60,141 nt of DNA from a virus (lineage: Duplodnaviria > Caudoviricetes): positions 1 through 60,141 of the IMG/VR virus record IMGVR_UViG_3300017767_000010, one strand, 5' to 3'. Below are positions 5,758-58,265 of this stretch, piece by piece (position 1 is the first letter of the stretch; each line of letters starts with the position of its first letter). Below the pieces are notes generated by a model. That model did no database searches and was not told the DNA's origin. It saw nothing but the letters and a program-made list of their open reading frames with translations. A program made the position numbers and the translations under genes.

Positions 5758-8343
5758 ATGTCGATTAAATTTAAATCAAAATTATCCGAGTTAGATGTAG
5801 ATGGTAAAATCGTACAATCTAAACATCGGACAATAAGACATACCGACGCAGTTCAGACTTTAGAAGTTAAAGTTATAACTAAAACCACTGCACATCCATC
5901 TCATGGATCCGGTAGTAGTTATGGTTATACTATAGACGGAGTTGAAGGTGCTTATCTTGAATTAACTCCCGGTATTACATATAAGTTTGATCAATCAGAT
6001 AGTTCAAACGGTGGAACTGGTACTGGTGGTGGTGCTCATCCATTATTATTTGCAACAGCTGCAGATGCCGCAGGAAGTACTCAATATACTACAGGTGTAA
6101 CTACAAGCGGTTCACCTGGAAGTTCTGGTGCATACACACAAATTATTCCAACAACAACAACTCCCCCTATATTACATTACTATTGTTCATCTCACACTGG
6201 GATGGGTAGCTATGCTAAATTTGGTACTGGCACAGTAGGAGACACATATTCTATAAATGTAGCGACAGATGGAAGTAATGTTGACTTAAACTTAGATGCA
6301 GCAAGTGGTACAGATTCAACTGTGCAATTAACAGCTGGTTCAAATATATCACTTACTAGAAACGATGCTCAGCAAGTTACTATAGCCGCCTCAGGTGGTG
6401 CACTAACTGTACAAGAAGAAGGTTCTTCATTATCGACTGCAGCAACTACATTAAATTTTACAGGTTCAGCCGTAACCGCTTCAGGTACGGGTGCAACAAA
6501 AACAATAAATATACCCGGTGGCAGTGGGGTAACGGTACAAGAAGAAGGTAGCTCACTATCTACAGCGGGTACAACTTTAAACTTTGTTGGTTCAGGTGTA
6601 ACTGCTTCAGGCACAGGAGCTACTAAAACAATTACCGTAAGTGGTGGTGGAAGTAGTGGACAAGTAACAACACAATTAAATGTATCAGGAGATGGTACTA
6701 CACAAGCTACAGATGGATCAAGAACTGCATTTACAATATCATCTGCTCCTGCTTCTGAAAACAATTTACAAATATATTTAGACGGTGTTTACCAGGCAAA
6801 AAGTGATTTTTCTGTAAGTGGAACAACTGTAACACTAGATGCTGCTCCAGCAACAGGAACTGTATTAGAAATAATACACTTTACTGTTATAGATGCTAAT
6901 ATATTTTTACAATCACATACTACAGCAAATAACAGTACAACCTCGTTTTCGGCAGGTGGAGTTATAGCAAATGAAAACGATACACAGGTTTACATAGATG
7001 GAGTTTATCAAAGTAAAAGTAATTATTCTGTTTCTGGAAGTAATGTAGTTTTAAGTACTGCACCCGCAACAGGAGCTGTTGTTGAAATAGTAAATATAAA
7101 AGCTAGTACAACATCATCTGGTTCTATAACTTGGGAAACAGGAATTAAAACATCTAGTTTTACTGCAGCAGCAGGTAAAGGGTATTTTGTAAATACAACA
7201 TCAGGGGCTGTAACGGTTAGTTTACCAGCAGGAAGTGCTGGAGAAGAAATACACTTTACGGACTACGCAAGCACATTTGATACCAATTCACTGATACTAG
7301 ATGCAAATGGTAGTCAAAAAATACAAGGAGGCACAGCTAATAAGCAATGTACTACAGAAAATGCTACTGTAAGATTAATATATCAAGATGATACTAAAGG
7401 TTGGACTGCTGATAATATTCTTATACCTCCAGTTACTGTAAATTATTTAGTTATTGCAGGAGGTGGAGCAGGTGGCGGTTATTATAGAGCTGGAGGCGGT
7501 GGTGCCGGTGGTTTAAGAACATCTTATGGTTCAGCTTCCGGTGGTGGGGGATCAGCAGAAAGTGCTTTAAGCCTAGCGGCTGCAACAAATTTTACTGTTA
7601 CCGTAGGTGCTGGTGGTGCCGGAGCTGCTTTCTCAGCTAGCAATGGTGGTAGTGGATCAGATTCTGTATTTTCTACTATAACATCCACAGGTGGTGGAGG
7701 TGGAGGTAGATATACTGGTAGTACTGGAACAGCTGGAGCTGCGGGTGGATCCGGTGGTGGTGGTGGCGGTGATAGTACCGGTGGCGCTGCTGGTGCTGGA
7801 ACTGCAAACCAAGGTTATGCTGGAGGAGCTGGAGCTGGATCCGGTGTACAATGTGGCGGCGGCGGCGGTGGTGCAGGTGCTGTTGGTCAGGCTGGTGGCG
7901 GTGGTGCAGAATCAGGAGATGGCGGTGATGGTATTCAATCTGCTATTTTAAATTATGCTAACGCAGGAACCGCAAGTGTAGGTGAACAAATAAGCGGATC
8001 ACAAGTATGGTATGCAGGTGGTGGTGGTGGTGGTAGTTATAGTTCTGGAAATGATACAATACCCGGTAAGGGTGGTGGAGGTGAAGGAACTGCTCAATCA
8101 AATTACCCTGGTAATGGTAGTAATGCTGACGCTAATACCGGTGGCGGAGGTGGAGGTGCTTCTGGAGACGCAGGTATTGTTGGTGGAACAGGTGGTTCAG
8201 GTGTAGTTATATTAAGATACCCTTCATCAAACACAGTAACTGTAGGATCGGGCTTAACAGAATCGAGTGGTTCACCTTTTACTGAAGGATCTGATAAAAT
8301 ATCTGTATTTACTGCAGGTACTGGAACAATAACATTTAGTTAA
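5758..8343 (+). CDS. modular glycine-rich tail fibre protein
   Basis: 861 aa; YYCSSHTGMG domain, duplicated TVQEEGSSLSTA and YLDGVYQ modules, C-terminal poly-Gly domain ending GGSGVVILRY. Confidence 0.8.
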   Translation: MSIKFKSKLSELDVDGKIVQSKHRTIRHTDAVQTLEVKVITKTTAHPSHGSGSSYGYTIDGVEGAYLELTPGITYKFDQSDSSNGGTGTGGGAHPLLFATAADAAGSTQYTTGVTTSGSPGSSGAYTQIIPTTTTPPILHYYCSSHTGMGSYAKFGTGTVGDTYSINVATDGSNVDLNLDAASGTDSTVQLTAGSNISLTRNDAQQVTIAASGGALTVQEEGSSLSTAATTLNFTGSAVTASGTGATKTINIPGGSGVTVQEEGSSLSTAGTTLNFVGSGVTASGTGATKTITVSGGGSSGQVTTQLNVSGDGTTQATDGSRTAFTISSAPASENNLQIYLDGVYQAKSDFSVSGTTVTLDAAPATGTVLEIIHFTVIDANIFLQSHTTANNSTTSFSAGGVIANENDTQVYIDGVYQSKSNYSVSGSNVVLSTAPATGAVVEIVNIKASTTSSGSITWETGIKTSSFTAAAGKGYFVNTTSGAVTVSLPAGSAGEEIHFTDYASTFDTNSLILDANGSQKIQGGTANKQCTTENATVRLIYQDDTKGWTADNILIPPVTVNYLVIAGGGAGGGYYRAGGGGAGGLRTSYGSASGGGGSAESALSLAAATNFTVTVGAGGAGAAFSASNGGSGSDSVFSTITSTGGGGGGRYTGSTGTAGAAGGSGGGGGGDSTGGAAGAGTANQGYAGGAGAGSGVQCGGGGGGAGAVGQAGGGGAESGDGGDGIQSAILNYANAGTASVGEQISGSQVWYAGGGGGGSYSSGNDTIPGKGGGGEGTAQSNYPGNGSNADANTGGGGGGASGDAGIVGGTGGSGVVILRYPSSNTVTVGSGLTESSGSPFTEGSDKISVFTAGTGTITFS

Positions 8344-12414: not shown

Positions 12415-12825
12415 ATGAAAAAAAAATTTAAAGACACTGCAGTTGGAAAGTTTTTATTAAATAAAATTCCAGCTGTAGTAGGGTCAATAGCTAGCGGTAC
12501 ACCAGCTGGCGGTATCATAGAGGCTATAATAGGTAGTAGTGAGATGTCTCAAGGCGATAAAGAAATTGCTTTGGAAAAACTAAAACTTGAAAGAGCTGAA
12601 ATAGATGGGACAACAGAAAGATGGGTTGCAGATGCAAACTCGGGAGCATGGCTTGCGGCTAATGTTCGTCCTTTAGTATTAATATTTTTAACAGTAAGCT
12701 ATGTAATTGGGTGGTACTTAAGTTATCCACTTGATTCAATAACCGGTTTATTAACAATAGTAATCGGAGGCTATTTCGGATCACGAGGTGTGGAGAAAGT
12801 CTTTGGAAACAAAATGCACAAATAA
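12415..12825 (+). CDS. holin (3TM, GTA-holin-like)
   Basis: WLAANVRPL...YFGSRGVEK with hydrophobic helices, upstream of the endolysin. Confidence 0.75.
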   Translation: MKKKFKDTAVGKFLLNKIPAVVGSIASGTPAGGIIEAIIGSSEMSQGDKEIALEKLKLERAEIDGTTERWVADANSGAWLAANVRPLVLIFLTVSYVIGWYLSYPLDSITGLLTIVIGGYFGSRGVEKVFGNKMHK

Positions 12826-12826
12826 A

Positions 12827-12976
12827 ATGCAAGACTTAAGAATTTATGGTATAAGTTTAGGTGGATTCACCTTTTCTATAATGCCAGATATAAATCCGCT
12901 GCTACAAACAGTAGTATTAGTATTAACTATAATATATACCATTATAGGTATAAAAAATAAATTAAATCAAAAATAA
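12827..12976 (+). CDS. small membrane protein in the lysis cassette
   Basis: MQDLRIYG...LLQTVVLVLTIIYTIIGIK; ATG at 12827. Confidence 0.65.
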   Translation: MQDLRIYGISLGGFTFSIMPDINPLLQTVVLVLTIIYTIIGIKNKLNQK

Positions 12977-12977
12977 A

Positions 12978-13328
12978 ATGCCTTTAAAATATTTTAATGA
13001 ATCTGAATTTAATGAATTTAAATTGATGAATAAAAAACTTCTTAGTATGTTAGATAACTTGCGAGAAGTATATGGTTCACCATTAAAAATAACATCAAGT
13101 TATAGAAGCCCTGATCATCCAATAGAAGCAAAGAAAAAAGCGCCAGGCGAACACGCATACGGTAATGCTGTTGATATTGCAAGTGTAGGTGGTGAGGCAA
13201 CATTTAAATTAGTTAAAGCTGCTATGGAAGTTGGCTTTACAAGAATAGGTGTAAGTAGAAAAAATAATTTTGTCCATGTAGGTATTGGTTATCCCGATGC
13301 TCCTAAAATAACTCTTTGGACGTATTAA
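12978..13328 (+). CDS. endolysin, peptidase M15A
   Basis: ITSSYRS...H..G.AVDI...FVH zinc-ligand pattern. Confidence 0.88.
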   Translation: MPLKYFNESEFNEFKLMNKKLLSMLDNLREVYGSPLKITSSYRSPDHPIEAKKKAPGEHAYGNAVDIASVGGEATFKLVKAAMEVGFTRIGVSRKNNFVHVGIGYPDAPKITLWTY

Positions 13329-13340
13329 ATAAAATTTAAA

Positions 13341-13601
13341 GTGGAACAATTCTTAATTGAATTTATTGTAATTATAGCAATATTTTTTGTGTTAAAAATA
13401 TTTTGGAATGCTAGATTAAAATTCTGGCTAGGTAATTTTGTAATAGGAATGAATGTATTTGCATGCATATTGTATTTATACGGTTTCTATAGTAATGTTA
13501 TGCCTTATGGTGATGCATTTAGTAAAGTACTATTACATTCCGTTGTAGCTATAATTATACATACACTTTTTAGTTTAGATGAAAAAAAGAAAATTAAATG
13601 A
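13341..13601 (+). CDS. three-TM membrane protein
   Basis: 86 aa, three hydrophobic segments, GTG start. Confidence 0.65.
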   Translation: MEQFLIEFIVIIAIFFVLKIFWNARLKFWLGNFVIGMNVFACILYLYGFYSNVMPYGDAFSKVLLHSVVAIIIHTLFSLDEKKKIK

Positions 13602-13816
13602 AATTAATAAGAAAAATATCAATTGGCCAAGACTATAAAAACGAAGCTATGCATTATTCTGTAGGGCAAGAGGTTTATGGTGGGCATACAATATGTGATA
13701 TATTTGAAAAAGATAATGGCTATCATATATACATAGAAAAAGATAGTAATCAGATACCATGGAAACATTTTAATACAAATATGGCTGTTTCTGTAGAATA
13801 CAATTTAGATTATTAA
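13598..13816 (+). CDS. conserved hypothetical protein
   Basis: IRKISIG.DYKNEAMHYSVGQEVYGG; coupled to neighbours. Confidence 0.8.
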   Translation: MKLIRKISIGQDYKNEAMHYSVGQEVYGGHTICDIFEKDNGYHIYIEKDSNQIPWKHFNTNMAVSVEYNLDY

Positions 13817-14412
13817 TGAAATCACTTTACAATTATATTATATATACTGATAGCAGATACGACAATAAAAAATACATAGATGGCAAAGAACTAATAATTA
13901 ATTCTGAATTATCTGAAAGAGATTATAAGTTTGTTAATAGAATAGGTACAGTTAAAAGCATACCTATAAATTATAAAACAAGAATAAAACCAGGTGATAA
14001 AGTAATTGTTAATCACAATGTATTTAGAAGATGGATTGATGTTAGGGGTAAAGAAAAAAATTCATCATCATATATTGATGAAAATATTTATTCCGTTAGT
14101 CCAGAACAAGTGTATGCATACAAAAATAATGGTGAATGGAAATGTCCTGACAAATATTGTTTTGTTAAACCATTACCACAAGATTTTAAATGGAGTCTTT
14201 TAAAAGAAAAAGAATTAGTTGGTGAGCTTGTATATAATAATAAGCTTTTAAGTTCGTTAAACGTGTCCGTAGGCGATATAGTGGGCTTTACACCAGATTC
14301 CGAATATGAGTTTAATATTGAGGATCAAAAATTATATAGAATTTTATCACATCATATAACAATCAACTATGGACGTAAAAAAAACAAGAGAGAGACTACT
14401 CAAAGCTGCTGA
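13816..14412 (+). CDS. tandem GroES-like protein
   Basis: Two GroES-like halves: GTVKSIP..IKPGDKVIV and FVKP...GELVY...VGDIVGF...EF.IEDQKLYRI. Confidence 0.6.
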   Translation: MKSLYNYIIYTDSRYDNKKYIDGKELIINSELSERDYKFVNRIGTVKSIPINYKTRIKPGDKVIVNHNVFRRWIDVRGKEKNSSSYIDENIYSVSPEQVYAYKNNGEWKCPDKYCFVKPLPQDFKWSLLKEKELVGELVYNNKLLSSLNVSVGDIVGFTPDSEYEFNIEDQKLYRILSHHITINYGRKKNKRETTQSC

Positions 14413-14626
14413 AAACTCTATAGAAGAGTTAATAAAAGTTATGAATAAAAAAATGGATCCAGAAGAATTAGATCCTGAAAAAGTAAAAATATCAGCATCA
14501 GCCTATAGATTAGCTATGGAAGACGCTATAGCTATGATGGCTAAAGTAGAAGAACTTAACAGTGTAGGAAAAGAAGACAACCCTAAAAAACAAGAATTCT
14601 TCGGTGTAGAAGATCGTATTAAATAA
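14369..14626 (+). CDS. putative terminase small subunit
   Basis: 85-aa helical protein directly upstream of and coupled to terL. Confidence 0.5.
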   Translation: MDVKKTRERLLKAAENSIEELIKVMNKKMDPEELDPEKVKISASAYRLAMEDAIAMMAKVEELNSVGKEDNPKKQEFFGVEDRIK

Positions 14627-16866
14627 TGTATAATCAAACCTTATATAAGATACACACCGAACATTTATCATCTAAATTAGTTAAAAATAATAATAGATAT
14701 AAAAAATTCGAGTACGGTTATAATAAAGATTTAGATTGTGTTGTTATAAGTAAAGACGGTACAATAGGTGAAATATATGAAATACAAGGATTAAAAATTG
14801 CACTTCCTTTAATACCTAAAGAAATTAATGGTAAAGAATTAAAAAAAGAAGATCAAGTATTTATTCAAACACCTAAACCAGCTACACTTAAAAAAATAAA
14901 AAGTATATATAATTTTAAGTCGTATAATGAGGATATAAAAGAAAAGTATTATGAATATATTAACAAGGAGTTTGATTTTCGTTCTGATGGTTACTGGTTC
15001 ATGTGCAACGGTGAGCCATGTTACCTCACCGGCTCCCATTATATATACCTCAATTGGACAAAGATCGATGTGGGTTCACCCGATTTTAGACACGCAAACA
15101 GATTATTTTTTTATTTCTGGGAGGCGTGCAAGGCGGATTATAGGTGTTATGGAATGTGCTACCTCAAGAACAGACGGTCTGGTTTCTCCTTTATGGCGAG
15201 TTCGGAAGTTGTCAACGTGGCAACTGTTACCAGAGATGCAAGATTTGGGATACTTTCAAAGACTGGAGGAGACGCGAAGAAGATGTTCACGGATAAGGTT
15301 GTCCCAATTTCCACGAACTACCCATTCTTTTTTAAACCAATACAGGATGGCATGGAGAGGCCAAAGACAGAATTATCGTATAAGGTACCATCGAGAAGGC
15401 TCACAAGAAAGACGATACAAGCAACCACCTCAACCACCGAAGAGAGTGATCAAATGGGACTTGACACCACCATCGACTGGAAGAATACAGGTGACAATTC
15501 CTACGACGGGGAGAAACTACAGATCCTCGTCCATGATGAATCGGGCAAGTGGGAGAAGCCGGACAACATTCTCAATAACTGGAGGGTCACAAAGACGTGT
15601 CTCCGTCTCGGTTCGAAGATAGTTGGTAAATGTATGATGGGATCTACATCTAATGCGTTAGACAAAGGTGGTAGTAATTTTAAAAAAATTTATAATGACT
15701 CAGATCTCACAAAGAAAAAAAGAAATCGCAATGGGCAGACTGCTAGTGGATTATATGCTTTGTTCATTCCTATGGAATGGAACTTCGAAGGATTCATTAA
15801 CAAATTTGGTTTTCCTGTCTTCGACACTCCGGAAACTCCGGCTGAAGGAATTGACAGGGAGCTTATCTACAACGGAGTTATCGATCATTGGGAGAATGAA
15901 GCAGATGGGCTCAAAGATAATGCCGATGCTTTAAACGAATATTATAGACAGTTTCCTAGAACTGAAAAACATGCATTTAGAGATGAAACAAAAGAATCAA
16001 TATTTAATTTATCAAGGATATATGAACAGATAGATTTTAATGAAGAAATGGTTGCATCAGGATATGTAACAAGAGGTTCTTTTCAATGGAAGAATGGTGT
16101 TAAAAATACTAAAGTACAATTTTATCCTAATCCTGAAGGAAAATTTAGAATATCTTGGATTCTTCCAACGGATATGCAGAATAATATAGAAATTAAAAAT
16201 GGAATTAAATATCCAGGTAATAAAGCTTATGGTGCTTTTGGTTGTGATAGCTACGATATAAGTGGAACAACAGATGGTGGCGGTTCAAATGGATCGCTAC
16301 ACGGATTAACAAGTTTTTCGTTATCACCAGATGTTCCTAAGTCACAATTTTTTTTAGAATATATTGCAAGACCACAAACAGCTGAAATGTTTTTTGAAGA
16401 TGTATTAATGGCTATTATATTTTATGGTATGCCAATACTTGCAGAAAATAATAAGCCTAGATTATTATATCATTTAAAAAGAAGAGGTTATAGAGGATTC
16501 TCTATGAATCGACCAGATAAAGCTAGAAATAAATTATCTGTAACAGAAAAAGAATTAGGTGGAATTCCTAATACATCAGAAGATATAAAACAAGCACATG
16601 CGTCTGCTATAGAATCCTATATAGAAAACAATGTAGGCATAACAGATGAAGAACATGGTAGAATGTATTTTCAAAGAACACTTGAAGATTGGTCTAAGTT
16701 TAATATTAACAATAGAACAAAGTTTGATGCTTCAATAAGTAGTGGTTTAGCTATAATGGCTTGCCAAAGACATTTATATGCTCCAAGAGCAGAAAGACAA
16801 ACAAGAAAGATAGATTTTGGATTTTCTAAATATAATAATTCAGGATTAAAAAGTAAAATATTATAA
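14626..16866 (+). CDS. terL: terminase large subunit
   Basis: Walker A-like KNRRSGFS, Walker B LVHDESGK, nuclease GCDSYD, ENNK and FDASI motifs. Confidence 0.93.
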   Translation: MYNQTLYKIHTEHLSSKLVKNNNRYKKFEYGYNKDLDCVVISKDGTIGEIYEIQGLKIALPLIPKEINGKELKKEDQVFIQTPKPATLKKIKSIYNFKSYNEDIKEKYYEYINKEFDFRSDGYWFMCNGEPCYLTGSHYIYLNWTKIDVGSPDFRHANRLFFYFWEACKADYRCYGMCYLKNRRSGFSFMASSEVVNVATVTRDARFGILSKTGGDAKKMFTDKVVPISTNYPFFFKPIQDGMERPKTELSYKVPSRRLTRKTIQATTSTTEESDQMGLDTTIDWKNTGDNSYDGEKLQILVHDESGKWEKPDNILNNWRVTKTCLRLGSKIVGKCMMGSTSNALDKGGSNFKKIYNDSDLTKKKRNRNGQTASGLYALFIPMEWNFEGFINKFGFPVFDTPETPAEGIDRELIYNGVIDHWENEADGLKDNADALNEYYRQFPRTEKHAFRDETKESIFNLSRIYEQIDFNEEMVASGYVTRGSFQWKNGVKNTKVQFYPNPEGKFRISWILPTDMQNNIEIKNGIKYPGNKAYGAFGCDSYDISGTTDGGGSNGSLHGLTSFSLSPDVPKSQFFLEYIARPQTAEMFFEDVLMAIIFYGMPILAENNKPRLLYHLKRRGYRGFSMNRPDKARNKLSVTEKELGGIPNTSEDIKQAHASAIESYIENNVGITDEEHGRMYFQRTLEDWSKFNINNRTKFDASISSGLAIMACQRHLYAPRAERQTRKIDFGFSKYNNSGLKSKIL
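14951..15622 (+). CDS. candidate nested lipoprotein-like ORF in the +1 frame of terL
   Basis: 223 stop-free codons; MNILTRSLIFVLMVTGSC N-terminus; matches a GC-rich patch. Confidence 0.45.
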   Translation: MNILTRSLIFVLMVTGSCATVSHVTSPAPIIYTSIGQRSMWVHPILDTQTDYFFISGRRARRIIGVMECATSRTDGLVSPLWRVRKLSTWQLLPEMQDLGYFQRLEETRRRCSRIRLSQFPRTTHSFLNQYRMAWRGQRQNYRIRYHREGSQERRYKQPPQPPKRVIKWDLTPPSTGRIQVTIPTTGRNYRSSSMMNRASGRSRTTFSITGGSQRRVSVSVRR

Positions 16867-44264: not shown

Positions 44265-46007
44265 TTAACCATCGCAGCTTAAACAATTAGGATCCATAGC
44301 TGCTGCTGCTATATCTCCTCTCAATACAGACTCTGTCCTCATATAATATAAGGTCTTTATTCCATGTTTCCATGCGTCCATATGTACCGTATTAATCCAT
44401 CTAGGTGTAGCCTCAGAAGGAAAAGCTAAATTAAGTGATACTGATTGATCAATATAATCTTGTCTTATACCTGCTTGTCTAACTAATTCTAGTTGGTTTA
44501 TTTCTTTAAATGTTTTAAATACGTTTTTGACTGGCTCTCCGTCTTCTTTATTAAGTCTTCCTCTTTCGTCATAATACCATCCGTTGAGTGCATCGAGTGT
44601 TTGAATGGATCCACCATCGGCAAGTATCTTATCCCATGTATCTTTGTTATCAATCCCAAGTTTTTTAAGTATTTTTTTAAGTTCGTTATTTTTTCTAATA
44701 AATGTTCCTTTAGCAGATTGCTCTGTAAATATATTAGCAGCCCATGGTTCAATACCGGCTGAAACATTTCCTGATAGTTTTGAATTACTAACAGTTGGTG
44801 CAATAGATCTTAAGTGTGTATTTCTAAATCCTGTACCAACACACCATAAGGGTTCACCATATATTTCAGCAAGTTCTCTTGAAGCTCTTTCAGTTTCTAT
44901 TTTTATTTTTGAAAATATTTCTCGCGTTTTGAATTGTGCTAATAAACTTTCGAAAGCTATTCCTCTTTTTTGTAGCAGGCTGTGCCATCCAAGGACACCA
45001 AGTCCAAGTGCCCTGCCTTTTTCCGCACTGCGTACAGAGTTCTCGAATCCCTTCATATTCTTTGCTCTCTGAATAAATTCTTCTAGCACACCGTCCAGGA
45101 ACCATGTCGCGTCGTAAATTAAATTTGTATTCTTCCATTCATCGTATTTATCTAAATTAAGTGAAGATAAACAACAAACAAAACTATGTGATTCATCCGT
45201 ATGCAGTACAATCTCACTACATATATTAGTCATATGTACTTTTAAACTGTTTTTCTTATATGCTGCTGGATTAGCTTTGTTTGTATTTCCTTTAAACAAG
45301 ATATATGGTTCTCCAGTTGCTTTACGTTTTTGGATAAGTTTGGACCATCTAATTCTTGCTTCTTCGTCTCCAAGCTCAAGCTTTCGCATAAACTTATCGC
45401 CAACGACAGCACACTGCTGCAGGTTAAGAGATTGTCTATTGACATCTCCTTTAGGTTCTCTAATTTCCAACCATTCGAGGAAATCATCGTGTTCAATATT
45501 GATATTAACGCTTGCAGCTCCTCTTCTAACGGAACCTTGGTTGGTCGCCAATATAGTTGAGTCGTATATTTTGCAAAAAGGGACAACGCCATCTGAAGTT
45601 CCATTACCTGTAATTTTAGCACCAGCGGGACGAATCATATTAACTCCGATACCTACACCCCCGCCGTGTTTTGCAAGCAACATCATTTCTAAATTTTTAT
45701 TACCTATGTCTTGTATACTATCTGAAACATCAATTCCAAAACAACTTATAGGTAAACCTCTATCTGAACCTGTGTTAGACAATACAGGTGATGCTAAACA
45801 CAACCACCCTTTCCATATATAATCAAAAAACTTATCAGCTAGTTCTGGCTTATATAAACGCTTTGCTACTGTTTTAGCAACACGCATATATGCATCACGT
45901 GGTGATTCACCATTAATTAAATATCCACCTGATATTGTTTTCTTATATATATCTGTATCACCCCACACAGGGTAATCTTTATTTTTTTTCCAATTACTAT
46001 TCCACAT
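44265..46007 (-). CDS. nrdA: ribonucleotide reductase class I alpha subunit (short form)
   Basis: PISCF, TNICSEI, CCLSS, APTVSNS, KTLYY, C-terminal CLSCDG. Confidence 0.95.
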   Translation of the reverse strand: MWNSNWKKNKDYPVWGDTDIYKKTISGGYLINGESPRDAYMRVAKTVAKRLYKPELADKFFDYIWKGWLCLASPVLSNTGSDRGLPISCFGIDVSDSIQDIGNKNLEMMLLAKHGGGVGIGVNMIRPAGAKITGNGTSDGVVPFCKIYDSTILATNQGSVRRGAASVNINIEHDDFLEWLEIREPKGDVNRQSLNLQQCAVVGDKFMRKLELGDEEARIRWSKLIQKRKATGEPYILFKGNTNKANPAAYKKNSLKVHMTNICSEIVLHTDESHSFVCCLSSLNLDKYDEWKNTNLIYDATWFLDGVLEEFIQRAKNMKGFENSVRSAEKGRALGLGVLGWHSLLQKRGIAFESLLAQFKTREIFSKIKIETERASRELAEIYGEPLWCVGTGFRNTHLRSIAPTVSNSKLSGNVSAGIEPWAANIFTEQSAKGTFIRKNNELKKILKKLGIDNKDTWDKILADGGSIQTLDALNGWYYDERGRLNKEDGEPVKNVFKTFKEINQLELVRQAGIRQDYIDQSVSLNLAFPSEATPRWINTVHMDAWKHGIKTLYYMRTESVLRGDIAAAAMDPNCLSCDG

Positions 46008-46595: not shown

Positions 46596-46620
46596 AATTA
46601 ATTATTGTTTAAAAGTTTAT

Positions 46621-47589
46621 TTACCAAATATCTTCAAAGTCTTCCCCTTCATTAGCTTTCGAATAATCAGTCGGCCTAATAGAAAAGAAATCAGTATGAG
46701 TGTGCCCGCCGGTAAGATGGTAGAACCAGTCCAAACTGCTCGCTCCAACTTCGTCATATTCAAAGTACTTCCCGCTGTTTGAGTAACCGAGTTCAACAAT
46801 TTTTTCGTTAAGACGTTTCCTGATAAATTGTTTAAGGTCATATGCTTTGAGGTTTTCAATATCCCCTTGTTCAAACATTTTGTCAATATATCTTTCTTCT
46901 GCTTTAAGCATTGTTTTTGCTGCTTTAATAACGTGTTCATAACAGTCATCTTGTAATCCTTTAATTTCTTTACACATATGTCTAAATAACTGACATCCCA
47001 TTTTAGAATGCAGCGATTCATCTCTTACACTCCATTTCATTTGTTGACCAATTCCTTTTAGCAAATTACGCAACTGAAAACTATATAACACAGCGAAAGC
47101 GGAATAAAGACTAACACCCTCTGCAAATGCAGAAAACACAGCAAGAGACTTACCTATACCAACTGGATTTTTACCTGTATAACTTACAAGATTTTCAAAT
47201 CTTTCAGCAGTTGCTGGCTCGTGTAAAAATGCTTCAAAGTTTTCAAGCCCTAGCGTTTCATTTAAATAAGAATAAGCAACAGCATGAATTGTTTCTTGTG
47301 AACCAAACATCATTGCCATTTGTTGTATTTCATGTTTAGGAAACCAACCTACAACCTTCTGTGTCCAATAATCTGATACCGCACATTCTGTTTGTGCAAA
47401 TCCTAAAAGTATGTTGCCAACTAAATTTTTTTCTGATTTAGTTAATTTTTCATTCCAGTCTTTAACATCGCTTGACATTGGTATTTCAGTATGTAACCAA
47501 AAAGCTTGTGCTTGTTTTAGCCAACCTTCTGTATAATATTCAGGATATTCAAAAGGTTTATAAGGTATTCTTTCGTCAAATAATCCCAT
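46621..47589 (-). CDS. nrdB: ribonucleotide reductase beta subunit
   Basis: FW...E, ETIH..AY, EGV.LYS.F, RDESLH diiron motifs, TDFF. Confidence 0.95.
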   Translation of the reverse strand: MGLFDERIPYKPFEYPEYYTEGWLKQAQAFWLHTEIPMSSDVKDWNEKLTKSEKNLVGNILLGFAQTECAVSDYWTQKVVGWFPKHEIQQMAMMFGSQETIHAVAYSYLNETLGLENFEAFLHEPATAERFENLVSYTGKNPVGIGKSLAVFSAFAEGVSLYSAFAVLYSFQLRNLLKGIGQQMKWSVRDESLHSKMGCQLFRHMCKEIKGLQDDCYEHVIKAAKTMLKAEERYIDKMFEQGDIENLKAYDLKQFIRKRLNEKIVELGYSNSGKYFEYDEVGASSLDWFYHLTGGHTHTDFFSIRPTDYSKANEGEDFEDIW

Positions 47590-50830: not shown

Positions 50831-51098
50831 AATAGTATTTACACATTTTATAATATTCAGGCCATATAGTATGTTTATCATAAACACTTGGTGAAAAACT
50901 TATAGTCTCGCCTTTCTTATATAAACCAAAAGCAATTGCTATTTTCCATTTACCAGGTTCTTGATGTATACCATAAGGTGATATTCTTATATTATTATCA
51001 ACACAATGTTTTTGCCATGTTTCTTCTTCTATACTAGTTGAGTAGGACGGCATTTTATATGCATTCTTTTTTCCTCTGCCTACTAATCCACTTCCCAT
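50811..51098 (-). CDS. hypothetical protein
   Basis: 95 aa overlapping both neighbours. Confidence 0.7.
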   Translation of the reverse strand: MGSGLVGRGKKNAYKMPSYSTSIEEETWQKHCVDNNIRISPYGIHQEPGKWKIAIAFGLYKKGETISFSPSVYDKHTIWPEYYKMCKYYYDKHTR

Positions 51099-52792
51099 GG
51101 CATATCATTTTTTATTTGTTGTGTTATTGGTATATAGTTACCGCTTACTTTATCCCATGTAAAATGTGCTTCAGCTTGATTCTCACCTAAGTTTTGAAAC
51201 TTTACTTTAAGAACTTTAACTTTTACAGTTTGCTTTTCATAATCTCTATGCACGAGCAATCCGTGATAAGATGCATCATACCATTCACCACCACCTTTAA
51301 TATTATACATATTAGGTTCGTCAATAGTACCATCATCTTTCTTATACATTTTAGTGGGATGAGCTACAACAATAACAAGTACATCATGCTTCTTAGCAAA
51401 AGCTTCAACTCTAGTTAAGTATTCCATAGTAGCATCTGTAATACTCATATTACTAGCACCATTCATCTTAACTTTATTATAAGGGTCTATAACTAAACAC
51501 TTTATACCTTTACGTTTTACAAGCTCTGCACCTTTCTCTAAAACAGAATCTAAATCATATCTTTCATTTTCTATAAAGAAAAAGTTATTGTTAACTACAT
51601 CAGTTACTTCATTCCATTTATCAGAACCTATATCTGTTTCTCTTGGCATCCAACCACCTATTTTACGAATAAGCTTATGACCATGTAGAAACGTAGGTTT
51701 ATTTTCTGGTGAAGCAAAAGCTGTTTTCCAACCATATTTTAAATAATAACCTATAATCATTCTATCTACAAAATCTGATTTACCTGAACTAGGTACACCT
51801 GTTACTGTAATAAACTGACCGGTATATGTTGAAAATATATTATCAAAAGGCTCTAACCCGATTTGATAACCGGGTTTGAAACCTTCTTTAATAAACTCTT
51901 TTAATTCATTACTTACATCTGATAATGTTAAAACATTTTCAAGAGGGACGGGGCTAGCATTATTAATGATGCCAGCAAGCATGTCGCTCCCATTGTGAAT
52001 AAGAAATTCATTAGCGTCTTTGTGATTACCGAAGTCGATCGTATAGCACGCTTCTGCTCCGAGTCTTCGAATAAGTTCTTGCTTAAGATTTTCTCCTGCC
52101 TCATCCTGATCAACTGCGAGAATGATTTTTTCTTTTGATTCAAAATAATCAATGCAGTTGTCCAAGTAATCAAGGTTAGTGTTATTAATTGTAGCTCCGT
52201 TTGGGACGCTAACCACTGAATCAATCCCAGCTTCAATAAAAGATAAAGCGTCAATCTCTCCTTCCACAATAACCACATATCTATGACTAAGAGTAGAATC
52301 AATATTATAAAATATTTTTTCTGCCCCTTTAACAAGTTTAAAATTTTTTCTTCCATCTCTATACTTTATGTTTGTTAATTCGTTATTAATAAAGTAATTA
52401 AATTGGATTGTGTTTTCTTTTTGTCCTGTCTGTGGCATATATTCTAATCCTTCAGATACTTTCATTTTATCTAAAGTACTTTCTGATATACCACGCTGTT
52501 TAAACCATTGAATAACTTTATTACTTAGTTTAGTATTTGTAATAGGTTCCGGCTTAACATATTCTTTATCAGGGTTTTTCCTTTTAAAGGTATGTAGCTG
52601 GAATGTATTATTACAATTATGACAAGTTCCAAGACCACGTTTCCAGTCGTAAGATGCACATTTCTTTTTCTGGTTAGCAGGTTTCCTGTCAGCAGAGCAA
52701 AGAGGACAAACGCCCTCTTGCTCACCAACTTTAAGATTATATTGATTAAATATATCTATATCGAAACCATTAATCTCGATGTCATTTATCAT
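51083..52792 (-). CDS. primase-helicase (T7 gp4/Twinkle-like)
   Basis: CPLC...CHNC zinc finger, TOPRIM EGEIDALS and D.DEAG, Walker A GVPSSGKS, VIDP, VAHP. Confidence 0.93.
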   Translation of the reverse strand: MINDIEINGFDIDIFNQYNLKVGEQEGVCPLCSADRKPANQKKKCASYDWKRGLGTCHNCNNTFQLHTFKRKNPDKEYVKPEPITNTKLSNKVIQWFKQRGISESTLDKMKVSEGLEYMPQTGQKENTIQFNYFINNELTNIKYRDGRKNFKLVKGAEKIFYNIDSTLSHRYVVIVEGEIDALSFIEAGIDSVVSVPNGATINNTNLDYLDNCIDYFESKEKIILAVDQDEAGENLKQELIRRLGAEACYTIDFGNHKDANEFLIHNGSDMLAGIINNASPVPLENVLTLSDVSNELKEFIKEGFKPGYQIGLEPFDNIFSTYTGQFITVTGVPSSGKSDFVDRMIIGYYLKYGWKTAFASPENKPTFLHGHKLIRKIGGWMPRETDIGSDKWNEVTDVVNNNFFFIENERYDLDSVLEKGAELVKRKGIKCLVIDPYNKVKMNGASNMSITDATMEYLTRVEAFAKKHDVLVIVVAHPTKMYKKDDGTIDEPNMYNIKGGGEWYDASYHGLLVHRDYEKQTVKVKVLKVKFQNLGENQAEAHFTWDKVSGNYIPITQQIKNDMPWEVD

Positions 52793-58045: not shown

Positions 58046-58118
58046 AGCGAAAAGTGGGCCTCGAACCCACAACCTTTAGATTGGAAATCTAATGCTCTGC
58101 CAATTGAGCTATTTTCGC
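58046..58118 (-). tRNA. tRNA-Gly(TCC)
   Basis: GCGAAAA/TTTTCGC acceptor, GCTC/GAGC D stem, TTAGA-TTTCCAA-TCTAA anticodon arm, GTGGG-TTCGAGG-CCCAC T arm, U73; CCA not encoded. Confidence 0.93.
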
Positions 58119-58191: not shown

Positions 58192-58265
58192 GTGCGCGGG
58201 GTGGACTCGAACCACCGACCTCGAGCTTATGAGGCTCGCGAGCTGACCATCTGCTCTACCGCGCA
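58192..58265 (-). tRNA. tRNA with CAT anticodon (Met; partly initiator-like)
   Basis: TGCGCGG/CCGCGCA acceptor, GAGC/GCTC D stem, CGAGC-CTCATAA-GCTCG, GGTGG-TTCGAGT-CCACC. Confidence 0.9.

What the first reader, a model, noticed from the sequence alone, without database searches (positions are those of the whole stretch)
14951..15622. 223-codon lipoprotein-like ORF overprinted in the terminase ATPase region
Seen: the +1 frame is stop-free for 672 nt in a very AT-rich genome. It starts with A at -3 and MNILTRSLIFVLMVTGSC (basic residue, hydrophobic core, Cys18). terL third positions visibly shift to G/C from just after this ATG until about this stop. Inference: dual-coding constraint, possibly an embedded Rz1-like lipoprotein in an unusual host gene.
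Basis: partly seen in the sequence, partly recalled or inferred. Interest (0 to 1): 0.72.

Follow-up and report, generated by a model that had tools for sequence, protein, structure and literature searches.

The report
Second gene hidden inside phage terminase
A 223-codon reading frame overlapping the large terminase gene of a marine phage has been kept open by selection in many diverged relatives, so it is very probably a real second gene that arose inside one of the most conserved phage genes.

Summary
ORF 14951..15622 lies in the +1 frame of terL (14626..16866). terL GC3 jumps from about 0.1 to 0.5-0.67 exactly over it.

Comparative evidence supports a real overlapping gene:
- 55 of 79 relatives keep a long +1 ORF at the same place, and 20 keep 219-223 codons.
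- The frame is stop-free beyond what local codon usage predicts: 0 stops against 4.2-8.2 expected, P<=0.0005, in 11 of 11 full-length lineages. ORF-less lineages match the null.
- Where a lineage has a premature stop, GC3 collapses downstream of it. Directional third-position changes there run 125:19, against 273:159 in the retained part.
- ORF-specific synonymous constraint peaks over the start and N-terminal hydrophobic segment.

The product is an orphan. It has an N-terminal hydrophobic anchor and an Arg-rich tail with no confident fold (pI 11.7, pLDDT 36). It has no homologue outside this locus.

The Rz1-like lipoprotein reading is not supported. Cys18 is forced by a terL Met-Cys pair, and the lipobox is not conserved.

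Two further conserved +1 ORFs turned up, one in terL and one in the primase/helicase gene. Function is unknown and translation is unproven.

The parts
14626..16866 (+). terL, the host (ancestral) gene, 746 aa
   Evidence: ORF. Matches phrog_6681 terminase large subunit at E 1.2e-157. 594 relatives in IMG/VR, the best 80 fetched.
14951..15622 (+). ORF-A, the +1-frame overlapping ORF of 223 codons plus TAG (the finding)
   Evidence: Conserved as open in 55 of 79 relatives. Shuffle tests. 147 representative database clusters, all at this locus as far as checked.
14926..14950 (+). A/T-rich initiation context of ORF-A with no Shine-Dalgarno sequence and A at -3
   Evidence: A position weight matrix built from 39 gene starts of the window gives score 5.09. 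True starts score 6.39 +/- 3.30. Only 2.7% of all ATGs score as high.
14969..15004 (+). N-terminal hydrophobic segment (residues 7-17, SLIFVLMVTGS) and Cys18 codon (15002-15004)
   Evidence: The peak of synonymous-codon conservation at 14896-15075 is seen only in ORF-bearing lineages. Cys is forced by the terL Met-Cys pair.
14985..15630 (+). GC3-rich patch of terL, which is the second codon position of ORF-A
   Evidence: GC3 collapses beyond premature ORF stops in relatives.
15005..15619 (+). Basic tail of ORF-A (residues 19-223) with no confident predicted fold; whole-protein net charge +28, R 35 of 223
   Evidence: AF2 with a 30-sequence alignment gives mean pLDDT 36.1. The tail has variable length in relatives: 116 to 223 codons.
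15635..15637 (+). Unavoidable +1-frame TGA made by invariant terL Met337-Met338; a hard 3' limit for ORF-A
   Evidence: Sequence. M337 and M338 are invariant in 20 of 20 aligned terL sequences.
15695..15934 (+). ORF-B, a candidate second +1-frame ORF (79 codons from ATG; 88 from GTG at 15668)
   Evidence: Open in 26 of 26 'bottom clade' lineages against 0 of 15 ORF-less lineages for 15706-15885. Highest synonymous conservation in terL (kappa up to 0.46). Per-sequence shuffle test only marginal. No RNA structure.

Best explanation
ORF-A (14951..15622) is a genuine protein-coding gene overprinted on the +1 frame of terL in a clade of uncultured, AT-rich marine podophages. These are related to phages of Flavobacteriia.

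Shown: natural selection keeps this frame open and shapes terL's synonymous sites over exactly the ORF's extent.

Inferred:
- The ORF is translated from the late terL mRNA by independent initiation at an internal ATG in an A/T-rich, Shine-Dalgarno-less context typical of this genome's genes.
- terL third positions are ORF-A second positions. A protein that needs Arg, Ser, Thr, Gly and Pro, and must avoid TAA, TAG and TGA, therefore forces G/C into terL wobble sites. This produces the GC3 island.
- The product has an N-terminal hydrophobic helix (signal-anchor, or in some lineages possibly a lipoprotein signal). This is followed by a strongly basic tail of variable length with no confident predicted fold.
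- I therefore think it most likely acts at the cell envelope late in infection. Candidate roles are lysis timing or envelope disruption, or exclusion of superinfecting phage. This would be analogous in architecture to other small embedded phage membrane proteins.

Sub-probabilities: selected, translated ORF about 0.8. Membrane-targeted product about 0.5. True lipoprotein in the window's clade about 0.2. Lysis-related role about 0.2.
For: 1. Conservation. Of 79 relatives analysed, 55 have a +1 ORF of at least 116 codons at the same place, and 20 have 219-223 codons open. The 79 are 78 IMG/VR loci plus GenBank MW202828; L033 and L035 were dropped for a stop or frameshift in terL. The +2 frame always has 14-40 stops.

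2. Stop avoidance beyond composition. In 11 of 11 full-length lineages tested there are 0 stops against 4.2-8.2 expected under within-patch synonymous shuffling (P<=0.0005). In 9 of 9 truncated lineages the longest open run has P<=0.005. Three of 3 ORF-less lineages fit the null (P 0.34-0.49). Control windows elsewhere in terL fit the null (P 0.14-0.81).

3. Specificity. In 26 'bottom clade' lineages the fraction with an open +1 frame is 1.00 for 14986-15255, 0.92 to 15435, and 0.58 at the 3' end. It is 0-0.31 elsewhere except for ORF-B. In 15 ORF-less lineages it is 0-0.20.

4. GC3 follows the ORF. In 7 full-versus-truncated comparisons, third-position differences downstream of the premature stop are 125 (GC in full, AT in truncated) to 19 the other way. 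The ratios are 273:159 in the shared part, 84:77 in the 5' flank and 243:237 in the 3' flank.

5. Synonymous constraint. Excess same-codon identity (kappa) is 0.23 in the ORF against 0.08-0.09 in flanks. A peak of 0.22-0.34 at 14896-15075 occurs only in ORF-bearing lineages. In 22 of 218 columns a G/C wobble base is held in at least 85% of 15 full-length lineages, while ORF-less lineages mostly use A/T or a mix.

6. N-terminal hydrophobic segment. It is present in 56 of 56 ORF-bearing sequences (maximum 15-residue hydropathy at least 1.84). It sits at different positions in the two clades. In several lineages it is favoured by codon choice (P 0.000-0.017 in L044, L070, L007, L081, L055). For example, ACT Thr codons occur in 9 of 9 top-clade ORF carriers where most ORF-less lineages (10 of 15) have ATA-ACA, which reads TAA in the +1 frame.

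7. Start-codon turnover. The window's clade lost the usual upstream ATG (terL Asp to Asn) and gained a stop, but has a new ATG 17 codons downstream, just before the hydrophobic segment. Its start context resembles real starts.

8. Composition. R+L+S make up 33% of ORF-A against 18% of terL. This matches the bias reported for proven viral overlapping genes (abstract of PMC6195259).

9. No homologue outside this locus. The 15 word-index hits and 147 profile hits are all ORF-A-like. The 12 longest or oddest I checked were mostly chimeras with the terL frame, or matched ORF-A alone. This fits de novo birth.
Against: - There is no direct evidence of translation. The four metatranscriptome runs gave only contig pieces, which cannot show a start, a strand or a separate transcript.
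- An OLGenie-like estimate of dN/dS for the alternate frame was inconclusive. dNN/dNS was 0.29-0.89 in the ORF against 0.15-0.80 in control regions. Within clades, terL-synonymous but ORF-nonsynonymous change (dSN) is not clearly slower in the ORF than in flanks. Most of the tail is therefore constrained in openness and composition rather than in sequence.
- AF2 predicts no fold (pLDDT 36.1), and nothing is recognised by Pfam, PHROGs, NCBIfam or the Atlas.
- The ORF has been truncated or lost repeatedly. It is absent in 24 of 79 relatives, so it is dispensable.
- In the window's own clade the N-terminal hydrophobicity is what terL's amino acids would give anyway (P=0.29).
- No promoter-like site lies upstream.
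- Lineages are related, so per-sequence P values are not independent. The tree was read without support values.
Confidence: 0.75

Rival explanations
1. The open frame is a passive by-product of a GC-rich tract in terL. The tract would come from recombination with a higher-GC relative, or from local compositional or translational selection. Nothing is encoded in +1.
For: Higher GC3 lowers off-frame stop density. With patch codon usage only about 4.8 stops are expected in 223 codons, so a single-genome open frame is not extremely rare after multiple testing. Other small GC3 bumps in the window also coincide with open +1 frames.
Against: The frame is open in lineage after lineage although synonymous sites are saturated between them (dSN about 2.15). 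Lineages with only modest GC3 (0.32-0.36) still keep 188-206 codons open. GC3 falls specifically downstream of lineage-specific stops (125:19). A transferred tract would have decayed under the AT bias seen in the flanks.
Confidence: 0.06
2. The constraint is on nucleic acid rather than protein. A structured RNA or DNA element inside terL, such as a packaging or regulatory site, would demand G/C at wobble sites.
For: Synonymous sites are constrained. The neighbouring 15661-15885 stretch has even stronger nucleotide conservation.
Against: There is no Rfam match in the window apart from two tRNAs. RNAalifold on 13 full-length lineages gives a weak consensus: -46.6 kcal/mol over 711 columns, covariation term -3.1, and 6 of 99 pairs with compensatory change. 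The result is similar for 15640-15939. A structure would not single out +1 stop codons or explain the GC3 collapse after ORF truncation.
Confidence: 0.04
3. The +1 frame is read not from its own ATG but by programmed +1 ribosomal frameshifting from terL. This would give a trans-frame protein made of the terL N-terminal domain plus the ORF-A sequence.
For: In most lineages the +1 frame is open 17-25 codons upstream of the window's ATG. The terL N-terminal part (about residues 10-170) was modelled with higher confidence than the rest. Some database proteins join the two frames.
Against: Every ORF-bearing lineage has an ATG near the 5' end of the open frame. The window's clade has a +1 stop four codons before its ATG and gained a replacement ATG. 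I saw no recognisable slippery site. At least one joined database protein switches frame several times, as expected from indel-ridden contigs.
Confidence: 0.05
4. ORF-A is translated, but the peptide has no function. Internal initiation and passage of ribosomes in +1 would modulate terL translation or mRNA stability, so only openness and composition matter.
For: The tail sequence is weakly constrained and is not predicted to fold. Its length varies from 116 to 223 codons.
Against: ORF-specific conservation is concentrated on the N-terminal hydrophobic segment, and codon choice favours hydrophobic residues there in two clades. Arg rather than Lys is held at 7 sites in 13-15 of 15 full-length lineages.
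Confidence: 0.08
5. One reading: ORF-A is an Rz1-like outer-membrane lipoprotein (o-spanin) embedded in an unusual host gene.
For: It is an embedded +1 ORF and lies in a late gene about 1.3 kb downstream of the endolysin and holin-like genes. No spanin is recognised in the lysis cassette. A permissive lipobox rule is met in 7 of 7 sequences of the window's clade. The best Atlas feature hit is an unnamed 'Lipoprotein' cluster at 0.79, which is below the useful threshold.
Against: The Cys is forced by terL. The permissive rule is met in only 28 of 56 ORF carriers and 0 of 14 in the top clade. The classical lipobox is met in 0 of 56. The product is 223 aa, net charge +28, and not Pro-rich apart from one QPPQPP stretch. 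There is no embedded or adjacent i-spanin partner. There is no PHROG or Pfam spanin match.
Confidence: 0.1

Closest known systems
Lambda Rz1 inside Rz (o-spanin embedded in the +1 frame of the i-spanin gene). Recalled knowledge, not from a call.
   Same: It is a complete gene nested in the +1 frame of a longer same-strand phage gene. It is a late gene, and its product starts with a hydrophobic signal followed by Cys.
   Different: The host gene here is terL, not a lysis gene. The product is about four times longer, strongly basic and not predicted to fold. The lipobox is not conserved. No partner protein is evident.
PhiX174 gene E inside gene D (single-gene lysis protein). Recalled knowledge, not from a call.
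   Same: It is embedded in a +1 frame. It has an N-terminal transmembrane helix as the conserved part, followed by a basic, poorly constrained C-terminal tail whose length can vary.
   Different: This is a 60-kb dsDNA phage that already carries an endolysin and holin-like genes. There is no sequence similarity, and no evidence for a lysis function.
Experimentally proven overprinted viral genes as a class (Pavesi et al. 2018, PMC6195259; abstract read)
   Same: It is taxonomically restricted and has no homologue elsewhere. It is enriched in high-degeneracy residues: R+L+S make up 33% against 18% in terL. The ancestral frame is the widely conserved one.
   Different: That dataset is of eukaryotic viruses. 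Here the evidence is comparative only, and the host is the ATPase core of a hallmark gene of tailed phages.
Long embedded overlapping genes reported in bacteria, for example the 957-nt and 1536-nt antisense ORFs in Pseudomonas aeruginosa (PMC8850804; search-listing abstract only)
   Same: It is a long ORF (more than 600 nt) wholly inside an annotated gene, argued from conservation.
   Different: Those are antisense and supported by ribosome profiling. ORF-A is same-strand +1 and lacks expression data.

Membership tests
Overlapping (overprinted) protein-coding gene | The alternative-frame ORF is conserved as open in diverged relatives, beyond what codon usage predicts | tested here: met
   55 of 79 relatives carry it. 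11 of 11 full-length lineages have 0 stops against 4.2-8.2 expected.
Overlapping (overprinted) protein-coding gene | Reduced or biased synonymous variation of the host gene, confined to the overlap | tested here: met
   Kappa is 0.23 against 0.08-0.09 in flanks. There is an N-terminal peak only in ORF carriers. GC3 collapses after truncation.
Overlapping (overprinted) protein-coding gene | Purifying selection on the alternate-frame amino-acid sequence (dN/dS below 1) | tested here: inconclusive
   OLGenie-like dNN/dNS is 0.29-0.89 in the ORF against 0.15-0.80 in controls.
Overlapping (overprinted) protein-coding gene | Usable start codon and initiation context | tested here: met
   An ATG lies near the 5' end of the open frame in all 56 carriers. 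The context score is within the range of true starts. The start codon has turned over in the window's clade.
Overlapping (overprinted) protein-coding gene | The product is detected (ribosome footprints or peptides) | not testable with these tools
   Only metatranscriptome contigs were available. They are uninformative.
Bacterial lipoprotein (signal peptidase II substrate) | Positively charged n-region, hydrophobic h-region and a lipobox ending in Cys. The rule is recalled: the classical box [LVI][ASTVI][GAS]C, and a permissive PROSITE-like form. | tested here: not met
   The classical box is met in 0 of 56. The permissive form is met in 28 of 56: 7 of 7 in the window clade, 12 of 14, 9 of 21, and 0 of 14 in the top clade.
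Bacterial lipoprotein (signal peptidase II substrate) | The Cys is conserved because of the lipoprotein function | tested here: not met
   The TGT codon is fixed by the terL Met-Cys pair, so its conservation is uninformative.
Rz1-type o-spanin | Nested in or next to an i-spanin gene within the lysis cassette (recalled definition) | tested here: not met
   The host gene is terL. The lysis genes lie at 12415-13601, and no Rz-like gene was seen.
Rz1-type o-spanin | Short, Pro-rich mature lipoprotein (recalled definition) | tested here: not met
   The product is 223 aa, with P 6% and R 16%.
PhiX174 E-like single-gene lysis protein | N-terminal transmembrane helix that inhibits a cell-wall synthesis step, as the sole lysis gene of the phage (recalled definition) | tested here: inconclusive
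   The hydrophobic N-terminus is present in 56 of 56. The phage, however, has an endolysin (phrog_894). The activity is not testable here.
Terminase large subunit (host gene) | Profile match to a terL family | tested here: met
   phrog_6681 at E 1.2e-157 over residues 26-743. Pfam and NCBIfam gave nothing.
Terminase large subunit (host gene) | ATPase fold with Walker A and B motifs under the ORF | tested here: inconclusive
   The invariant KNRRSGFS and LVHDESG motifs were read by eye. There are no PDB hits. The AF2 model has pLDDT below 30 for most 10-residue blocks of residues 175-389 (all below 50).

The most novel reading that the evidence does not exclude
ORF-A is a de novo-born, envelope-acting late protein. 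It would be a lysis or outer-membrane-disrupting factor, or a superinfection-exclusion factor, written over the ATPase core of terL. It is one of at least three overprinted genes in this marine phage lineage, together with ORF-B in terL and a multi-helix membrane ORF in the primase/helicase gene. If so, even the most conserved hallmark gene of tailed phages can carry a long second gene for tens of percent of protein divergence. GC3 islands in AT-rich phage genomes would then be a practical beacon for finding such hidden genes.
Probability: 0.3. Interest if true: 0.8.

Novelty: new member of a known kind. Interest (0 to 1): 0.7.

Why it matters
- terL is the standard marker for phage phylogeny and for selection analyses. 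A 670-nt second gene across its ATPase core distorts synonymous rates, GC3 and codon-usage signals in a whole clade of abundant marine phages, and annotation pipelines miss it.
- It gives a well-sampled natural series for studying birth, growth, truncation and loss of an overprinted gene in a dsDNA phage. The series includes full-length forms, forms of 206, 188, 167, 150 and 116 codons, and lineages without the ORF.
- The GC3 collapse after truncation is an unusually clean read-out of when constraint was lifted.
- The same genome has at least one more conserved embedded ORF, so overprinting may be more common in large AT-rich phage genomes than assumed.
- The practical gain is a simple discovery rule: a GC3 island together with a conserved open off-frame.

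Tried and rejected
- Pfam, PHROGs, NCBIfam and the ESM Atlas on ORF-A gave nothing usable. The only results were DUF4402 at E 0.025, below its cut-off, and an Atlas score of 0.79.
- tblastn of ORF-A against 50,697 phage records found no match. The nearest cultured terL is 46% identical (Flavobacterium elemo phages) and 38% identical (Cellulophaga phi46:3 group), so no isolate carrying the ORF is on hand.
- The AF2 model of ORF-A has pLDDT 36.1. The AF2 model of terL with a shallow 20-sequence alignment has pLDDT 42.2, so no fold search was run.
- PDB sequence and profile searches with terL gave 0 hits.
- The sigma-70-type promoter and terminator scan found no more sites than shuffled sequence, and none in front of the ORF.
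- The Bacteroidetes-type -7 motif TANNTTTG (recalled) has 93 matches against 104 expected, and none lies just upstream of the ORF.
- Metatranscriptome contigs from 4 RNA runs in 2 studies lie mainly on about 15100-16050. Contigs cannot show starts, strand or level, and the runs were chosen with this stretch, so I draw nothing from the result.
- A comparison of upstream gene order between ORF carriers and non-carriers found no gene whose presence or absence tracks the ORF within 3 kb.
- The OLGenie-like dN/dS estimate was inconclusive.
- The single-sequence shuffle test for ORF-B was marginal (P 0.008-0.12 in stop-free lineages).
- The other embedded +1 ORFs in the two RNR genes gave P 0.004-0.014. 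They were picked because they are open, so this is not significant, and they were not followed up.
Paper supplements were not consulted.
- Three literature searches listed no paper describing a gene embedded in terL. This covers only the held library, and I read listings and abstracts only, apart from the outline and abstract of PMC6195259.
Full report
**What is there.**
- The window is an AT-rich (31.8% GC) phage genome of about 60 kb. Its large terminase gene is 14626..16866 (746 aa; phrog_6681, E 1.2e-157).
- The nearest cultured relatives by terL are Flavobacterium 'elemo' podophages (46% aa identity) and Cellulophaga phages (35-38%).
- It overlies terL residues 109-332. These include the invariant Walker-A-like KNRRSGFS and Walker-B-like LVHDESG motifs (the motif names are my reading from recall).
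- It ends 13 nt before a +1 TGA that the invariant terL Met337-Met338 pair makes unavoidable.

**The GC3 shift is real and sharp.**
- terL GC3 is 0.08-0.16 upstream, 0.48-0.67 across the ORF and 0.26 just after. It shows a second bump of 0.38 at 15740-15935 and is 0.11-0.12 to the end.
- Wobble bases in the patch are nearly equiprobable: A .21, C .28, G .28, T .23. In the flank they are A .47, C .04, G .08, T .42.
- In this frame arrangement terL position 3 is ORF position 2. This is the composition expected of the second codon position of an ordinary protein.
- No other gene of the window has a patch of similar size.

**Relatives.**
- The search for related loci found 594 terL relatives in IMG/VR, and the best 80 were fetched. 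I added GenBank MW202828.
- After dropping L033 (internal stop) and L035 (frameshift), 79 relatives with 61-100% terL identity were codon-aligned.
- The +1 frame over the window's ORF interval is open for 219-223 codons in 20 relatives, down to 74% terL identity.
- It is open for 185-206 codons in 17 relatives, for 116 codons in 4, and for 121-182 codons in 14 members of a second, deeper clade.
- The remaining 24 relatives have 9-16 stops there and no GC3 elevation. The +2 frame has 14-40 stops in every sequence.
- On a FastTree phylogeny rooted on MW202828, the long form looks ancestral to one major clade, with several independent truncations. Shorter forms are patchy in the sister clade (support values were not inspected).

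**Is openness merely a consequence of GC3?** No.
- I permuted synonymous codons within the patch, which preserves its local codon usage. This predicts 4.2-8.2 stops where 11 of 11 full-length lineages have none (P<=0.0005 each).
- The 9 truncated lineages tested have longest open runs with P<=0.005. Three ORF-less lineages match the null.
- Control 88-codon windows elsewhere in the window's terL match the null.
- Lineages with only modestly raised GC3 (0.32-0.36) still keep 188-206 codons open.
- Synonymous divergence among the full-length lineages is saturated (dSN about 2.15), so the repeated result is not simple inheritance.
- A sliding scan makes the specificity plain. Among 26 lineages of the ORF-bearing clade, the +1 frame is open in 100% for 14986-15255 and in 92% to 15435. 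It falls to 58% at the 3' end and is 0-31% elsewhere apart from one further stretch (see the section on in-passing findings). In 15 ORF-less lineages it is 0-20% everywhere.

**Does GC3 follow the ORF?** Yes.
- Wherever a lineage has a premature +1 stop, GC3 is high up to that stop and low beyond it.
- I made seven comparisons of a full-length lineage with a truncated relative. In the part lost from the ORF, wobble differences are overwhelmingly G/C in the full form and A/T in the truncated one (125:19).
- The ratio is 273:159 in the retained part, 84:77 in the 5' flank and 243:237 in the 3' flank.
- This is what relaxation of an ORF-imposed constraint under AT mutation pressure predicts. It is hard to reconcile with a recombinant tract or an RNA element.

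**Where is the constraint?**
- Excess same-codon identity over the composition-based expectation (kappa) is 0.23 in the ORF against 0.08-0.09 in the flanks.
- In sliding windows it peaks at 0.22-0.34 over 14896-15075, which covers the start region and the N-terminal hydrophobic segment. It does so only in ORF-bearing lineages; ORF-less lineages give about 0.
- Over the tail it is modest (0.03-0.20).
- In 22 of 218 columns a G or C wobble base is held in at least 85% of 15 full-length lineages while ORF-less lineages mostly use A/T or a mix. These include seven Arg codons.
- An OLGenie-like dN/dS estimate for the alternate frame was inconclusive.
- I conclude that the N-terminus is sequence-constrained. 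The tail is constrained mainly to stay open, hydrophilic and basic.

**The product.**
- It has 223 aa, 35 Arg, net charge +28 and pI 11.7. R+L+S make up 33% (terL 18%). This is the composition bias reported for proven viral overlapping genes (abstract of PMC6195259).
- AF2 with a 30-sequence alignment predicts no fold: mean pLDDT 36.1, with only short helices including residues 2-15.
- There is no Pfam, PHROG or NCBIfam family and no useful Atlas hit.
- A word-index search found 15 unnamed proteins. A full HMM search of 1.84 billion representatives found 147 clusters. All are ORF-A-like, and no stand-alone homologue was seen.
- The 12 longest or oddest hits I checked were mostly chimeras of the ORF-A and terL frames, or matched ORF-A alone; one had only a terL-frame match. 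At least one switches frame several times, as in indel-ridden contigs.
- This fits de novo origin by overprinting.
- All 56 ORF-bearing sequences have an N-terminal hydrophobic stretch, but it sits about 10 residues further downstream in the deeper clade.
- There it is produced by specific synonymous choices. ACT Thr codons occur in 9 of 9 carriers where most ORF-less relatives (10 of 15) have ATA-ACA, which reads TAA in +1.
- Codon-resampling tests give P 0.000-0.017 in five lineages. In the window's own clade P is 0.29, because there terL's amino acids already enforce the hydrophobicity.

**Start codon.**
- Most lineages start at an ATG made by a terL Tyr-Asp pair.
- The window's clade lost that ATG (Asp to Asn) and acquired a +1 stop. 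It has a new ATG 17 codons downstream, immediately before the hydrophobic segment.
- Its A/T-rich, Shine-Dalgarno-less context scores 5.09 on a matrix built from 39 gene starts of this genome. True starts score 6.39 +/- 3.30, and only 2.7% of all ATGs do as well.

**Lipoprotein or Rz1?**
- Cys18 is dictated by the terL Met-Cys pair, so its conservation is uninformative.
- A permissive lipobox rule is met in 28 of 56 carriers: 7 of 7 in the window's clade and 0 of 14 in the deeper clade. The classical box is met in 0 of 56 (rules recalled).
- The lysis cassette lies 1.3-2.2 kb upstream: holin-like proteins, the endolysin phrog_894, and further small membrane proteins. No spanin is recognised. 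A late envelope-acting role is therefore conceivable but not shown.
- Architecturally the ORF resembles phiX174 E (embedded +1 frame, N-terminal membrane helix, basic dispensable tail) at least as much as Rz1. Both comparisons rest on recall.

**Rivals.**
- RNA structure: there is no Rfam family. RNAalifold consensus structures are weak, with almost no covariation.
- Promoter or other motif: nothing exceeds chance.
- Frameshift fusion: this is disfavoured by the ATGs and by the upstream stop in the window's clade.
- Expression: metatranscriptome contigs exist for parts of the region but cannot show a start, strand or translation.

**In passing: more of the same in this genome.**
- A second +1 stretch in terL (ATG 15695 to 15934) is open in 26 of 26 lineages of the ORF-bearing clade and in 0 of 15 ORF-less ones. 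It coincides with the strongest synonymous conservation in the gene, with kappa up to 0.46.
- The primase/helicase gene (51083..52792, minus strand; phrog_239) holds a +1 ORF, 51928..52356, of 142 aa with several hydrophobic segments. It is open for 138-141 codons in 26 of 26 relatives at 71% identity or more (2.3-9.1 stops expected). It is closed, with 5-20 stops, in relatives at 68% or less.
- Overprinting therefore seems to be a recurrent feature of this phage lineage. This raises my confidence in ORF-A.

**Verdict.**
The dual-coding interpretation is well supported by independent comparative tests.
- The lipoprotein/Rz1 label is not supported. Function and translation remain to be shown.
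- This is a new, orphan example of a known phenomenon. It is notable for its length, its host gene and its clean evolutionary series.

Noticed in passing
window 15668/15695..15934 (+): There is a second +1-frame open stretch in terL (ORF-B; 88 codons from GTG, 79 from ATG). For 15706-15885 it is open in 26 of 26 lineages of the ORF-A-bearing clade against 0 of 15 ORF-less lineages. It coincides with the strongest synonymous conservation in terL (kappa 0.23-0.46). Per-sequence shuffle tests are only marginal, and no RNA structure was found.
   Followed up: partly
window 51928..52356 (-), inside 51083..52792 (-): A 142-aa +1-frame ORF with several hydrophobic segments lies inside the primase/helicase gene (phrog_239). 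It is open for 138-141 codons in 26 of 26 relatives with at least 71% identity, against 2.3-9.1 stops expected. Relatives at 68% identity or less have 5-20 stops. It is a second strong candidate for an overprinted gene.
   Followed up: partly
window 45242..45622 (-), 44498..44803 (-), 46617..47021 (-): Further same-strand +1 ORFs of 101-134 aa lie inside the ribonucleotide reductase large (44265..46007) and small (46621..47589) subunit genes. Two antisense ORFs (44605..45072 and 45277..45822) also lie there. The single-genome shuffle P of 0.004-0.014 is not meaningful after selection. No relatives were examined.
   Followed up: no
proteins P0046, P0067, P0087 (database hits to the ORF-A profile): Some predicted metagenome proteins join the ORF-A frame to the terL frame. 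One of them, P0087, switches frame several times and ends in the ORF-B frame. They are most likely products of indel errors in contigs, but natural frameshifted variants were not excluded.
   Followed up: partly
window 12415..13601 (+): A lysis cassette lies just upstream of the packaging genes. It holds a 136-aa protein with C-terminal membrane segments, a small membrane protein (12788..12976), the endolysin 12978..13328 (phrog_894), and an 86-aa membrane protein (13341..13601). The last has homologues only in some relatives. No spanin is recognised.
   Followed up: partly
window 13816..14412 (+): A 198-aa protein matching the PHROG family 'co-chaperonin GroES' (phrog_13932, E 1.1e-24) is conserved directly upstream of an 85-aa protein and terL in nearly all relatives examined. 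No GroES-like match was listed for L038 and L040.
   Followed up: no
window 14626..15135 (terL residues about 10-170): In the AF2 model of terL only the N-terminal part (about residues 10-170) is confident: 10-residue block means are 65-94 apart from one dip to 49. The highly conserved ATPase part has pLDDT about 20-30. This is probably an effect of the shallow, closely related alignment.
   Followed up: no
window 58046..58118 and 58192..58265 (-): Two tRNA genes are the only Rfam matches in the window.
   Followed up: no
window 5758..8343 (+): This region has the highest overall GC in the window (0.40-0.45 at 6-8 kb). The cause is GC-rich first and second codon positions of an 861-aa ORF (GC1/2/3 = 0.52/0.60/0.13), not GC3, so it is a different phenomenon from the terL patch.
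   Followed up: no
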